DNA from: a virus
Lineage: Duplodnaviria; Heunggongvirae; Uroviricota; Caudoviricetes
IMG/VR virus record: IMGVR_UViG_3300028957_000063
Span: 1 to 8,511 of that record
DNA length: 8,511 nucleotides
Direction: 5' to 3' (one strand)
A model generated the notes under the pieces. That model worked only from the letters and a program-made list of their open reading frames with translations. It had not been told where the DNA came from and did no database searches. Shown here piece after piece: positions 4,503 through 7,661 of the stretch. Position 1 is the first letter of the stretch; the number at the start of each line of letters is the position of its first letter. The translations under genes were made by a program, and so were the position numbers.

Positions 4503-4662
4503 TGAATTTTGTGATGCGGTGCCTGGTGCCTCCAGGTGACGTTAACCAGTTAACAATTAACGCCGGATACAGGGAAACCCATAAACACCCGATACGGGGG
4601 AACTAATCGCTTTTTAACTGTTCCGCGTGCGCTGAGCCGCATTCACCGCATCACAAAATTCA
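4503..4662. repeat. Perfect 19-bp inverted repeat pair flanking a 122-bp core
   Basis: TGAATTTTGTGATGCGGTG at 4503-4521 is the exact reverse complement of 4644-4662. The core contains hairpin CCTGG-TGCCT-CCAGG (4522-4536) and three closely spaced TTAAC/GTTAAC copies (4550-4570). Confidence 0.7.
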
Positions 4663-5052: not shown

Positions 5053-5286
5053 ATGTTAAAATCAACTCTTATTGCTAAATGCCTTTATCAAAATCGCATG
5101 GTAAGCAGCATTTCAATAGGCGAGTCTGCAGTTAAAAGTATTTTCGAAGAGTACTTTCCCGGGCATGATTTTAATAAATGGAATACCAAATTACCGCCAG
5201 CAGTTTCAACGCGTATTCTGAAAGCAACTGAAAGAGCAAGTACAATTCGCGTTAACTATTTCATTAAAGATTTGTGGGATCTTTGA
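5053..5286 (+). CDS. Hypothetical small protein (77 aa), encoded opposite to the surrounding leftward operon
   Basis: Strong Shine-Dalgarno AGGAGG 4-5 nt upstream of ATG 5053. AT-rich codon usage unlike the flanking DNA (by eye). Its 3' end overlaps the convergent 135-aa ORF by 23 nt. No family recognised. Confidence 0.45.
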   Translation: MLKSTLIAKCLYQNRMVSSISIGESAVKSIFEEYFPGHDFNKWNTKLPPAVSTRILKATERASTIRVNYFIKDLWDL

Positions 5287-5671
5287 TATCCACAGAGCCT
5301 AAAGTATGTGCATATGGATGTGCTATTGTGCGCCCTCGCAGATTTGCATCATTTTCTAAATTCACTGAACGAAACAGGGCATCAACAAGGCTCTGTACAA
5401 TGCAAAGGCAATCGAAGACTGTCGCCGTTTCTGTTTTGATTGATGAAAGAACATGGCCATTCACGCAAACAGAAATTACCCGTTTATTAACATCGCTTTC
5501 CTGCTTTTGATTATCAGAACCATATAGCCCAGAAAAAGCATTGCGCACATTACAAACCATATTATCGATGGTTTCTTTTTTGGTGTATGCCGGGTCAATT
5601 TTCACCAGACTATCACCGAGAGTCGTTGCAGCAATTGTCTGGATTTCTTTTGGTAAATCTTTAAATTCCAT
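5264..5671 (-). CDS. Hypothetical protein (135 aa), in an AT-rich accessory segment
   Basis: ATG at 5669-5671 with GAGG about 8 nt upstream. Starts 22 nt after the stop of the upstream 72-aa ORF. No family recognised. Confidence 0.55.
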   Translation of the reverse strand: MEFKDLPKEIQTIAATTLGDSLVKIDPAYTKKETIDNMVCNVRNAFSGLYGSDNQKQESDVNKRVISVCVNGHVLSSIKTETATVFDCLCIVQSLVDALFRSVNLENDANLRGRTIAHPYAHTLGSVDIKDPTNL

Positions 5672-5952: not shown

Positions 5953-5987
5953 NNNNNNNNNNNNNNNNNNNNNNNNNNNNNNNNNNN
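5953..5987. other. Run of 35 ambiguous bases (N): assembly gap or masked segment of unknown true length
   Basis: Directly visible in the sequence. Confidence 0.99.
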
Positions 5988-6211: not shown

Positions 6212-6265
6212 GTTGACCTCATTTCCCCTTAACGCCGGGGTAGCGGAACTGTTTGCTGAGAACAC

Positions 6266-6414
6266 CGTGCGGTGTCTTGATGAATAAAATTTAGAATAAC
6301 CTAAGGTGGATGGTCAAGGTTTTTGTGTAGAAAAACCTAAGTTTTTTTGATGTAAAAAACACAAGTGTTTGAAAGTTTGTGCTTTTTATTACAGGGTGTG
6401 GAGAAAAAAGGGGG
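6266..6414 (-). promoter_or_regulatory. AT-rich intergenic region downstream of the repressor gene: putative leftward early promoter (pL analogue) with operator-like sites
   Basis: On the minus strand, TTGACC (complement of 6313-6318) is followed about 18 nt later by TAAATT. Operator-like imperfect palindromes at 6289-6306 (ATTTAGAATAACCTAAGG) and 6325-6342 (GTGTAGAAAAACCTAAGT) share the TAG-N6-CTAAG core with the pR-side sites. Confidence 0.4.
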
Positions 6415-6822
6415 TTATTTGTTTGCGCTTCTTTTGCGAGCTTTGAGTAGTTCTTCAAAAAGTTTGTTGAAATTTTCAACTCGAGCACGCATCTCTGACA
6501 ACAGGGCCTTTTGCTCTGACTCAGGCAGTGCGTCGAACAGTTGAAGTAACTCTTTTTGATCTTCTGTCAGAATGGCTGGTTGATTATCCGGGAGCGGTTC
6601 GCCTGGTTGTTTATCTTCATCCCCAAAAAGAAGCCAAGTCGGTGAGCACTGAAGCGCTTGGCTCAGTGCGAATAATCTTTTCCCCGCCGGCTGTGTTTCA
6701 TCTCTTTCCCATTGAGAAATTGTTACGTGAGCCACTTTGACCAGCTTACCTAATGCGGCCTGAGACAGTTTTAATTTTTTACGCCTATGTAAGAGGCGAG
6801 CACCGAAGGTTTCGTTTTTCAT
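6415..6822 (-). CDS. dicA: Prophage repressor, HTH XRE-family, DicA-like (cI analogue), 135 aa
   Basis: N-terminal HTH (LSQAALGKLVKVAHVTISQWER). Strong resemblance from memory to E. coli DicA (blocks such as LFALS..LQCSPTWxLFGDEDKQP and EMRARVxNFNKLFEELLKAR). Divergently arranged with a Cro/DicC-like gene. Confidence 0.85.
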   Translation of the reverse strand: MKNETFGARLLHRRKKLKLSQAALGKLVKVAHVTISQWERDETQPAGKRLFALSQALQCSPTWLLFGDEDKQPGEPLPDNQPAILTEDQKELLQLFDALPESEQKALLSEMRARVENFNKLFEELLKARKRSANK

Positions 6823-6898
6823 ATTAGGGAATTCTAATTTTTCTTGACTTAGGTTTCTCTACGATCTAGTTTCCTTAGGAAAATCTAAGGAGTTCGAT
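6823..6898. promoter_or_regulatory. Divergent promoter/operator region between the repressor and the cro-like gene (oR/pR/pRM analogue)
   Basis: Rightward -35 TTGACT (6844-6849), 17-bp spacer, -10 TAGTTT (6867-6872), then AAGGAG Shine-Dalgarno sequence 6 nt before ATG 6899. Palindrome CCTTAG-GAAAAT-CTAAGG at 6873-6890 and a weaker copy at 6847-6864 overlap the promoter elements. Confidence 0.55.
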
Positions 6899-7126
6899 AT
6901 GTTGAAAATTGATGCTATAGCGTTTTTTGGCAGCAAAACAAAGCTTGCCAATGCCGCAGGAGTTAGGCTGGCAAGCATTGCTGCATGGGGGGAACTGGTT
7001 CCTGAAGGTCGCGCGATGCGCCTGCAAGAGGCATCCGGCGGGGAACTTCAGTACGACCCTAAAGTTTATGACGAATATCGTAAGGCAAAGCGGGCGGGGC
7101 GGTTGAACAATGAAAATCACCCCTGA
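6899..7126 (+). CDS. dicC: Cro-like regulator, DicC/YdaS-like (75 aa)
   Basis: Small ORF divergent from the DicA-like repressor with a strong AAGGAG Shine-Dalgarno sequence. Translation resembles DicC from memory (FGSKTKLA..AG.RLAS...LVPEGRAMRLQEASGGELQYDP...). Confidence 0.8.
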   Translation: MLKIDAIAFFGSKTKLANAAGVRLASIAAWGELVPEGRAMRLQEASGGELQYDPKVYDEYRKAKRAGRLNNENHP

Positions 7127-7661
7127 ACAGGTTTGTGAGGCTCTGGATGCCTGGGTATGCCGACCAGGAATGACACAGGAGCAGGCGACGATATTAATCA
7201 CGGAAGCATTCTGGGCTCTGAAAGAACGCCCGAACATTGATGTTCAACGCGTCACGTTTGATGATGGCGCGGTTGATCAACGGGCACTGGGCGTTAACCG
7301 GGTGAAGATATTCGAACGCTGGAAAGCTATCGACACCAGGGATAAGCGTGAAAAATTCACGGCGCTGATTCCGGCAATTATGGAGGCTATCCGGATCAGC
7401 GATTTCAGGTTGTATTGTGAAATTACTGACGGAAAAAGCATTACGTACATGATCGCCGGGTTAAACAAAGAATATGGCGATGTGGTGGAGTCCGGGCTGC
7501 TTTTTGCGGATCCAGCTGTTGTGGAGCGTGAGACTGACGAGCTTATAGAAAAAGCTATTGCTTTCAAGCATGCGTATCGTCAGCAATACCAACATTACTT
7601 TGCAGATAAACAAATATCTGTCTGGGGTTCGTATGAGTATCGATGCACTACGATGGGCTAA
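7110..7661 (+). CDS. Prophage early regulatory protein at the cII position (183 aa), possibly CII(CP76)-like or YdaT-like
   Basis: ORF starts inside the last codons of the cro-like gene (17-nt overlap, different frame) and ends at TAA 7659-7661. Family assignment is from position and size only. Confidence 0.6.
   Translation: MKITPEQVCEALDAWVCRPGMTQEQATILITEAFWALKERPNIDVQRVTFDDGAVDQRALGVNRVKIFERWKAIDTRDKREKFTALIPAIMEAIRISDFRLYCEITDGKSITYMIAGLNKEYGDVVESGLLFADPAVVERETDELIEKAIAFKHAYRQQYQHYFADKQISVWGSYEYRCTTMG

What the first reader, a model, noticed from the sequence alone, without database searches (positions are those of the whole stretch)
6266..6898. Shared operator-like palindrome (CCTTAG-N6-CTAAGG) in both regions flanking the repressor gene
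The best copy is CCTTAGGAAAATCTAAGG (6873-6890) just downstream of the putative pR -10. Weaker copies are at 6847-6864 (overlapping -35 TTGACT), 6289-6306 and 6325-6342. Copies on both sides of the repressor gene, overlapping candidate promoters in each direction, match an oR/oL-type arrangement for the DicA-like repressor. This gives a testable operator consensus.
Basis: seen in the sequence. Interest (0 to 1): 0.5.

Follow-up and report, generated by a model that had tools for sequence, protein, structure and literature searches.

The report
Prophage repressor operators, P22/DicA type
The palindromes on both sides of the repressor gene are very probably the real binding sites (operators) of this E. 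coli prophage's DicA-like repressor, an ordinary switch of the well-known phage P22 / Qin DicA design that differs from the characterised E. coli K-12 version by two bases per half-site.

Summary
A fifth copy at 6822-6839, next to the repressor start codon, was missed.

The core TAG-N6-CTA is: 6 hits against 0.71 expected, five of them in the two intergenic regions. A matrix trained only on other loci ranks these five sites as the window's top five.

The repressor is 62% identical to K-12 DicA. Its N-terminal domain is homologous to the P22 C2 DNA-binding domain, and the divergent gene is a P22_Cro/DicC homologue. The five sites align with P22 OR1-3 and OL1-2, and with the K-12 DicA operator Oc (TGTTAG-N6-CTAACA).

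In 82 loci carrying this repressor type, the half-sites stay fixed while spacers and flanks vary. Across immunity types, the outer half-site bases change together with the repressor's helix-turn-helix sequence.

Verdict: real operators and a correct interpretation. This is a heteroimmune member of a known kind, and interest is low to moderate. Binding has not been tested. The most original lead is that specificity (CC versus TG) tracks a helix-2 residue (Ala versus Arg), not the recognition helix.

The parts
6873..6890 (.). OR1, equivalent to K-12 Oc. Perfect operator CCTTAG-GAAAAT-CTAAGG, immediately downstream of the pR -10 and covering the predicted start of the cro-like transcript.
   Evidence: Sequence. 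Top matrix score, 18.1. Same position as P22 OR1 and K-12 Oc. CCTTAG and CTA are invariant in 22 distinct upstream haplotypes while the spacer varies.
6847..6864 (.). OR2, equivalent to K-12 Om. ACTTAG-GTTTCT-CTACGA, overlapping the pR -35 and spacer.
   Evidence: score 15.0. Same position as P22 OR2, which also overlaps TTGACT. The distal GTAG half is kept in W-type loci (the window's repressor type) but is absent from E-type loci.
6822..6839 (.). OR3, equivalent to K-12 Oa. TATTAG-GGAATT-CTAATT, abutting the repressor ATG and containing the candidate -10 of the repressor maintenance promoter.
   Evidence: score 13.8. Same position as P22 OR3, which abuts the c2 ATG and contains the pRM -10. 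It is conserved across immunity types, so it may be mainly a promoter or Cro site.
6289..6306 (.). OL1. ATTTAG-AATAAC-CTAAGG, lying between the -35 and -10 of the leftward promoter.
   Evidence: score 16.9. Same position as P22 OL1 and K-12 OL1. It differs from E-type OL1 only at the two outer bases, CC versus TG.
6325..6342 (.). OL2. GTGTAG-AAAAAC-CTAAGT, just upstream of the pL -35.
   Evidence: score 10.0. Same position as P22 OL2. The ACTTAG half is conserved in W-type loci.
6415..6822 (-). Repressor gene, 135 aa, DicA-like. It has an HTH_3 N-terminal domain and a short helical C-terminal domain, with no S24 autocleavage domain.
6899..7126 (+). Cro-like gene, a DicC homologue of the P22_Cro family. 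Its Shine-Dalgarno sequence AAGGAG (6887-6892) overlaps the right half of OR1.
6844..6872 (+). Candidate pR (dicCp analogue): -35 TTGACT at 6844-6849, a 17-nt spacer, and -10 TAGTTT at 6867-6872.
   Evidence: Read. Positionally equivalent to the annotated P22 pR and to K-12 dicCp. The consensus scan did not call it because the -10 matches only 3 of 6.
6288..6317 (-). Candidate pL (dicBp analogue): -35 TTGACC at 6317-6312 and -10 TAAATT at 6293-6288. It drives the ydfA/ydfB/ydfC-like genes.
   Evidence: Alignable with P22 pL, TTGACC...TAAATT.
6831..6836 (-). Candidate -10 (TAGAAT) of a pRM-like repressor promoter, 8 nt before the ATG. This implies a nearly leaderless repressor mRNA.
   Evidence: Same register as the P22 pRM -10, TAAGAT. 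The annotated 5' end of the P22 RM transcript is 4 nt before the c2 ATG. Inference only.
6353..6388 (-). Hairpin followed by a U-run between the repressor stop codon and OL2. Probably the intrinsic terminator of the repressor gene.
   Evidence: -9.6 kcal/mol, z = -3.6. Hairpins of different sequence sit at the same position in diverged loci.

Best explanation
The five 18-bp elements are the operators of a P22-immC / Qin-DicA-type immunity switch. Three lie in oR and two in oL. Their consensus is nCTTAG-N6-CTAAGn.

Proposed mechanism:
- A dimer of the 135-aa repressor places its C2-like helix-turn-helix domains in successive major grooves, in the same TTA-N8-TAA register as P22 C2.
- At OR1, and probably OR2, it blocks the rightward promoter of the cro-like/ydaT-like operon.
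- At OL1, and probably OL2, it blocks the leftward promoter of the ydfA-ydfC operon.
- OR3 overlaps the repressor's own weak, nearly leaderless promoter. It is the likely site for Cro-like (DicC-type) shut-off or for autoregulation.
- The repressor has no RecA-cleavable domain, so derepression would come through an antirepressor, as for K-12 DicA.

This locus is heteroimmune to K-12 Qin. Its half-site is CCTTAG where K-12 has TGTTAG.

Shown here: the sequence anatomy, homology, positional equivalence, conservation and covariation. Inferred: binding, repression, and which of the weak sites are occupied.
For: Statistics:
- The core is enriched and clustered.
- An independent matrix ranks the five sites as the top five.

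Homology:
- 62% identity to DicA.
- N-domain match to P22 C2, PDB 1ADR and 2R1J.
- The Cro-like protein is P22_Cro and 84% identical to DicC.

Positional equivalence:
- To the annotated P22 OR1-3, OL1-2, pR, pRM and pL.
- To K-12 Oc. Single-base mutations in Oc abolish DicA-dependent repression (PMC3441716).

Conservation:
- In W-type loci (78-100% repressor identity, IMG/VR) and Enterobacter hormaechei L172 (74%), the TTAG and CTAA core columns vary in 3 of 32 columns, against 132 of 198 for the rest. Fisher p = 6e-10.

Covariation:
- Repressors with helix-2 motif TQR (9 helix-turn-helix variants) have TGTT... operators.
- SQA repressors (this type) have CCTTAG. SQN repressors have TATTGAG. 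P22, with RQA, has ATTTAAG/ATTAAAG.
- W and E types share OL1 except for the two outer bases.

Cro side:
- K-12 DicC ChIP-seq shows binding on both sides of dicA, with the palindrome TT(A/C/T)G...C(G/A/T)AA (PMC11430063).
Against: - No binding or expression data exist for this repressor type.
- In K-12, Om and Oa did not bind DicA in an in-vivo assay when tested alone (PMC3441716). OR2, OR3 and OL2 here may therefore be weak, dependent on cooperativity, or not repressor sites.
- OR3 is conserved across immunity types regardless of repressor specificity, and it overlaps a candidate -10. Its conservation may reflect promoter or Cro function.
- The ACTTAG half of OR2 is also present in E-type loci, whose operators are TGTTAG. 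That half may be partly a by-product of the -35 context TTGACTTAG.
- No third OL site was found.
- The loci compared are related to each other, so the Fisher p-value overstates their independence.
Confidence: 0.85

Rival explanations
1. Only OR1, and perhaps OL1, are true repressor operators. The weaker copies (OR2, OR3, OL2) are promoter elements, Cro-only sites or evolutionary relics that merely resemble the motif.
For: - K-12 DicA bound Oc but not Om or Oa in vivo (PMC3441716).
- OR3 is nearly the same in W, E, K and BUCT708 types despite their different specificities, and it contains TAGAAT at -10 distance from the ATG.
- The OR2 proximal half overlaps the -35 and is shared with E-type loci.
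- OL2 has the lowest score, 10.0.
Against: - All five sites keep TAG-N6-CTA in exact register, and nothing else in the window scores close to them.
- The OR2 distal half (GTAG) and the OL2 ACTTAG half are conserved within W-type loci, and the OR2 distal half is absent from E-type.
- P22 uses all equivalent sites.
- The window's OR2 is closer to its own consensus (9 of 10 core bases) than K-12 Om is to its consensus.
Confidence: 0.3
2. The palindromes are mainly targets of the Cro-like (DicC-type) protein. The repressor uses a different or only partly overlapping determinant.
For: - DicC ChIP-seq in K-12 gives its strongest peaks on both sides of dicA, with a TTNG...CNAA palindrome (PMC11430063).
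- The Cro-like proteins of W and E types have nearly identical helix-turn-helix sequences (92% identity overall), and all types share the TTAG...CTAA core.
Against: - The outer half-site bases covary with the repressor's helix-turn-helix, not with Cro's.
- A single Oc mutation abolished DicA-dependent repression in K-12 (PMC3441716).
- In all characterised lambdoid switches, both proteins share the operators.
Confidence: 0.1
3. The pattern is a chance resemblance or compositional artefact of AT-rich intergenic DNA.
For: CTAAGG alone is at the chance level.
Against: Core enrichment with 0 of 200 shuffles reaching the count. An independent matrix ranks the sites top five. The sites are conserved across 80 or more loci and across genera, and they are positionally equivalent to P22 and K-12 operators.
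Confidence: 0.02

Closest known systems
Qin prophage DicA/DicC immunity region of E. coli K-12 (operators Oa, Om, Oc; dicBp operators)
   Same: - A 135-aa repressor, 62% identical, with the same C-terminal domain.
- A DicC-like Cro, 84% identical.
- The same flanking ydfA/B/C-like and ydaT/ydfX-like genes.
- The same operator geometry (TTAG-N6-CTAA in an 18-20 bp palindrome) at the same positions relative to pR and pL.
   Different: - The half-site is CCTTAG instead of TGTTAG. Repressor helix 2 reads SQAALGKLVK instead of TQRSLAKALK, and helix 3 reads AHVTISQ instead of SHVSVSQ. The two are predicted to be heteroimmune.
- OR1 overlaps the cro-like Shine-Dalgarno sequence here.
- The window has no dicF or dicB.
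Phage P22 immC (C2 repressor, Cro, OR1-3, OL1-3)
   Same: - The repressor N-domain is homologous (E = 1e-21 to PDB 1ADR and 2R1J), with Val33 and Gln37 equivalents conserved.
- Cro belongs to the P22_Cro family.
- Operators are 18 bp in the same TTA-N8-TAA register.
- OR3 abuts the repressor ATG, OR2 overlaps the pR -35 TTGACT, and OL1 lies between TTGACC and TAAATT of pL.
   Different: - No C-terminal S24 (RecA-dependent autocleavage) domain. Instead there is a DicA-type domain of about 50 aa.
- The half-site is CCTTAG rather than ATTTAAG, with G instead of A at position 6.
- No OL3 was found, and no N-like gene follows pL.
E-type DicA-like prophage repressor of E. coli E94 / NRG857C, E. ruysiae and E. 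albertii (uncharacterised)
   Same: - Identical recognition helix, VAHVTISQWERDETQP.
- Cro-like protein 92% identical.
- OL1 identical except for two bases, and the OR2-proximal and OR3 DNA is shared.
   Different: - Operators are TGTTAG-N6-CTAACA.
- Helix 2 is TQREAARLAG.
- No recognisable OR2 distal half.

Membership tests
Lambdoid immunity switch of the P22 immC / DicA type | Divergently transcribed repressor and cro genes separated by a short intergenic region | tested here: met
   Repressor at 6415-6822 (-) and cro-like at 6899-7126 (+), with a 76-bp gap.
Lambdoid immunity switch of the P22 immC / DicA type | Repressor with a C2/434-type HTH_3 DNA-binding domain | tested here: met
   Pfam HTH_3 at 7.8e-14. 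P22 C2 N-terminal domain structures 1ADR and 2R1J at E = 1e-21.
Lambdoid immunity switch of the P22 immC / DicA type | Cro of the P22_Cro family | tested here: met
   PF14549 at 3.1e-13, 49.7 bits against a cutoff of 30.2.
Lambdoid immunity switch of the P22 immC / DicA type | Multiple related, partly palindromic operators overlapping pR/pRM and pL on both sides of the repressor gene | tested here: met
   Three sites in oR and two in oL, in register with the annotated P22 operators and promoters. A third OL site was not found.
Lambdoid immunity switch of the P22 immC / DicA type | Operator sequence conserved with the repressor type and covarying between immunity types | tested here: met
Lambdoid immunity switch of the P22 immC / DicA type | Direct, sequence-specific binding of repressor (and Cro) to the sites, with repression of pR and pL | not testable with these tools
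   Only inferred by homology to K-12 DicA-Oc (PMC3441716), DicC ChIP-seq (PMC11430063) and P22.
LexA-like (S24) autocleavable phage repressors (lambda CI, P22 C2) | C-terminal Peptidase_S24 domain with an Ala-Gly cleavage site | tested here: not met
   The protein is 135 aa and has no S24 hit. Similarity to C2 ends at residue 69. K-12 DicA likewise lacks it and is controlled by an antirepressor (PMC10448788).
K-12 DicA immunity specificity (operator TTGTTAG-N6-CTAACAA) | Half-site TGTTAG | tested here: not met
   The window's half-sites are CCTTAG, ACTTAG and similar. TGTTAG-N6-CTAACA is absent. The geometry is the same and the specificity differs.

The most novel reading that the evidence does not exclude
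Immunity specificity in this repressor family may be set largely outside the recognition helix.
- The window's repressor (W type) and the E-type repressor have identical helix 3 but read CCTTAG and TGTTAG respectively.
- The difference tracks the residue after the conserved Gln at the start of helix 2. It is Ala in SQA and Arg in TQR. All 9 TQR variants examined pair with TGTT... operators.
- The Cro-like proteins are nearly identical between types. They probably read only the shared TTAG...CTAA core.

If so, co-resident prophages that are heteroimmune at the repressor level could still cross-talk through Cro. W and E would also form a natural two-base / few-residue specificity-swap pair.
Probability: 0.4. 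Interest if true: 0.4.

Novelty: new member of a known kind. Interest (0 to 1): 0.25.

Why it matters
- It gives a concrete, testable operator consensus (nCTTAG-N6-CTAAGn) and a site map for an immunity type common in E. coli, including EHEC PPompW-type prophages, to which the window is 94.6% identical over 74% of its length. The K-12 DicA operator does not describe this type.
- It allows prediction of which co-resident Qin-like prophages share or differ in immunity.
- The W/E pair is a clean natural experiment on how C2/DicA-type helix-turn-helix domains discriminate the outer operator bases.
- It does not reveal a new kind of regulation.

Tried and rejected
CCTTAG-N6-CTAAGG at up to 3 mismatches, and CTAAGG alone, were not enriched. 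I replaced them with the invariant core and an independently trained matrix.
- Sixth core hit. The hit at 7546-7557 is TATAG...CTAT inside the ydaT-like ORF and scores 2.8. I rejected it as chance.
- Rfam. There were no hits at gathering threshold and no DicF.
- Consensus promoter scan. It found pL but not pR, whose -10 is weak. I placed pR by homology with P22 and K-12.
- Literature. The Béjar 1986 and Cam 1988 papers, which first defined Oa, Om and Oc and the dicB promoter operators, are not held. I relied on later papers that cite them. Searches for any description of this operator variant or of DicA-like repressors found nothing specific. The O157 DicC paper has no binding data.
- Third OL site. 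I looked for an OL3 equivalent upstream of OL2 and found none. A terminator hairpin occupies that position.
- RNA-level role for OR1. I considered and rejected this, because only one half-site would be transcribed.

Full report
**Context.** The window is the early region of a lambdoid, Qin-like E. coli prophage.
- It is 94.6% identical over 74% of its length to PPompW prophages of EHEC. The immunity region is 98% identical to one in E. coli CEA224S.
- Gene order: integrase, an xis-like gene, a 791-aa exonuclease, ydfC-, ydfB- and ydfA-like genes (all on the - strand), a 135-aa repressor (6415-6822, -), a 75-aa Cro-like gene (6899-7126, +) and a YdaT-like gene (7110-7661, +).
- The repressor is 62% identical to K-12 DicA and carries an HTH_3 domain. 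Its residues 2-69 match the P22 C2 DNA-binding domain, PDB 1ADR and 2R1J, at E = 1e-21.
- The Cro-like protein is in Pfam P22_Cro and is 84% identical to DicC.

**Checking the observation.**
- The perfect palindrome CCTTAG-GAAAAT-CTAAGG is at 6873-6890, and the three weaker copies are at the stated coordinates.
- All copies share TAG-N6-CTA. That core occurs 6 times against 0.71 expected, and 0 of 200 shuffles reach 6. Five of the six lie in the two intergenic regions next to the repressor gene.
- The fifth site, 6822-6839 (ATTAG-GGAATT-CTAAT), abuts the repressor ATG.
- A half-site matrix trained only on sites from diverged loci, not the window, ranks these five as the window's top five. The scores run from 18.1 to 10.0 and the next is 6.2.
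- The sixth core hit, at 7546, is TATAG...CTAT inside an ORF. I treat it as chance.

**Comparison with characterised switches.**
- In K-12, the DicA operator Oc is TTGTTAGTCATAACTAACAA. A single A-to-C change abolishes DicA-dependent repression (PMC3441716).
- Oc sits between the dicC -10 and the dicC start, exactly where 6873-6890 sits here. The geometry, TTAG-N6-CTAA, is the same. The outer bases differ: TG/CA in K-12 and CC/GG here.
- The P22 RefSeq record annotates OR1-3, OL1-3, pR, pRM and pL. Placed side by side, the window matches P22 element for element.
  - OR3 abuts the repressor ATG and contains the pRM -10. This is TAAGAT in P22 and TAGAAT here, 8-9 nt before the ATG. The annotated 5' end of the P22 RM transcript is 4 nt before the ATG.
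  - OR2 overlaps the pR -35, TTGACT.
  - OR1 follows the pR -10.
  - OL1 lies between TTGACC and TAAATT of pL.
  - OL2 lies just upstream of that -35.
- The operators are 18 bp in the same TTA-N8-TAA register as the P22 consensus ATTTAAGATATCTTAAAT. In P22, Val33 packs against the TTAA methyl groups (PMC5175364). Val33 and Gln37 are conserved in the window's repressor.
- I found no OL3 equivalent. A hairpin followed by a U-run, probably the repressor terminator, occupies that position.

I call the window's repressor type "W".
- I collected 80 IMG/VR loci with W-type repressors (78-100% identity) and 80 loci with K-12-type DicA. I added 28 loci from different species, several E. coli variants and several phages.
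- Within the W type, the half-sites are kept at equivalent positions while spacers and flanks change. This includes loci with unrelated cro genes and flanks (L075-L082) and Enterobacter hormaechei (74% identity).
  - The OR1 spacer varies: ATTTTC, GTTTTC, GTTTTT, TTTTTC, CTTTTC.
  - The 5 nt between the pL -35 and OL1 show 19 variants.
- The TTAG and CTAA core columns are variable in 3 of 32 cases, against 132 of 198 for the remaining intergenic columns. Fisher p = 6e-10. The K-12 type shows 0 of 24 against 64 of 206. The loci are related to each other, so these p-values are generous.
- At OL1, position 1 varies (C, T or A) while position 2 (C) is fixed. The conserved half-site is therefore CTTAG.

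**Covariation between immunity types.**

| Repressor helix-2 motif | Operator half-site |
|---|---|
| TQR (9 distinct helix-turn-helix variants, including K-12 DicA and the E type) | TGTT... (TGTTAG, TGTTAAG, TGTTGAG) |
| SQA (this type, W) | CCTTAG |
| SQN | TATTGAG |
| RQA (P22) | ATTTAAG / ATTAAAG |

- The E type has the same recognition helix as the window, VAHVTISQWERDETQP. Its helix 2 is TQREAARLAG rather than SQAALGKLVK.
- E-type OL1 is TGTTAGGTTATTCTAAAT, against CCTTAGGTTATTCTAAAT here. Only two bases differ.
- This is good evidence that the palindromes are what the repressor reads. It also suggests that the outer-base specificity depends on helix 2, not helix 3. That last point is an inference.
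- The Cro-like proteins of W and E types are 92% identical and have essentially the same helix-turn-helix.
- K-12 DicC ChIP-seq gave peaks on both sides of dicA, with the palindrome TT(A/C/T)G...C(G/A/T)AA (PMC11430063). Cro may therefore read only the shared core.

**Mechanism.** Binding and repression are inferred, not shown.
- Repressor dimers at OR1, and probably OR2, occlude pR. Its elements are -35 TTGACT (6844-6849) and -10 TAGTTT (6867-6872). The predicted transcript start lies inside OR1, and the cro-like Shine-Dalgarno sequence AAGGAG overlaps OR1's right half.
- Repressor dimers at OL1, and probably OL2, occlude pL, with -35 at 6317-6312 and -10 at 6293-6288.
- OR3 overlaps the repressor's own promoter and is the likely Cro shut-off site.
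- The protein lacks an S24 domain. Like K-12 DicA, it would be inactivated by an antirepressor rather than by RecA-stimulated cleavage (PMC10448788).

**Caveats.**
- In K-12, Om and Oa did not bind DicA when tested alone (PMC3441716).
- OR3 is conserved across specificities, so it may be mainly a promoter or Cro element.
- OR2's proximal half is shared with E-type loci.

For these reasons I rate OR1 and OL1 as high confidence, OR2 and OL2 as moderate, and OR3 as uncertain as a repressor site.

**Verdict.** This is a heteroimmune member of the well-known P22 C2 / DicA operator-repressor family, not a new kind of element. I found no paper describing this operator variant, so the consensus itself appears to be new detail. 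Interest is low to moderate.

Noticed in passing
window 6822-6839: A fifth operator-like site, ATTAG-GGAATT-CTAAT, abuts the repressor ATG (P22 OR3 / K-12 Oa equivalent). It contains TAGAAT 8 nt before the ATG and there is no Shine-Dalgarno sequence. This suggests a nearly leaderless, pRM-like repressor transcript, as in P22.
   Followed up: partly
L083-L162 (K-12-type DicA loci), oR and oL regions: The 6-bp spacers of OR1, OL1 and OL2 are hyper-polymorphic but vary only by transitions. They are always YYATRR, with 8-10 variants per site, while TGTTAG and CTAACA are invariant. This fits a purine/pyrimidine shape constraint (indirect readout) on bases that are not contacted.
   Followed up: partly
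window 6307-6311 and equivalent positions in L003-L082: The 5 nt between the pL -35 (TTGACC) and OL1 show 19 variants among loci whose repressors are 95-100% identical. OL1 position 1 varies (C, T or A) while position 2 is fixed.
   Followed up: partly
window 6260-6276 (- strand RNA, about +5 to +21 of the predicted pL transcript): The inverted repeat GACACC-GCAC-GGUGUU lies in the leader of the ydfA operon. Other genera have a different but still self-complementary sequence at the same position, for example AATCACCGCACAGTGATT in L172 and AATCACTCAGCAGTGATT in L186. The function is unknown. It could be a nut/put-like or RNA-processing element.
   Followed up: no
L163-L165, L173-L174 (E-type loci) versus window 6822-6864: E-type loci share the OR2-proximal half, the pR -35 and OR3 almost base for base with the window. 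They then diverge toward OR1 and within the repressor's N-terminus. This places a recombination breakpoint inside oR.
   Followed up: partly
window 6899-7126 versus L163:1119-1346: The Cro-like proteins of W and E immunity types are 92% identical and have the same helix-turn-helix, although the repressor operators differ (CC versus TG). Cro may cross-react between immunity types.
   Followed up: partly
window 6887-6892: The Shine-Dalgarno sequence AAGGAG of the cro-like gene is formed partly by the right half-site of OR1 (CTAAGGAG).
   Followed up: no
window 4508-4660 (-): A sub-threshold Rfam match to the sRNA STnc100: 34.3 bits against a gathering score of 47, E = 3.6e-05. No DicF and no dicB were found in the window, although the 98%-identical immunity region in L002 is followed by dicB.
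   Followed up: no
window 5264-5671 (-): A 135-aa ORF with no Pfam match lies where Qin carries dicF and dicB.
   Followed up: no
window 5954-5987: A run of N masks part of the ydfB-like gene.
   Followed up: no
window 6353-6388 (-): An A/U-rich hairpin followed by U6 lies between the repressor stop codon and OL2 (z = -3.6). It is probably the repressor terminator. Diverged loci have hairpins of different sequence at the same position.
   Followed up: partly
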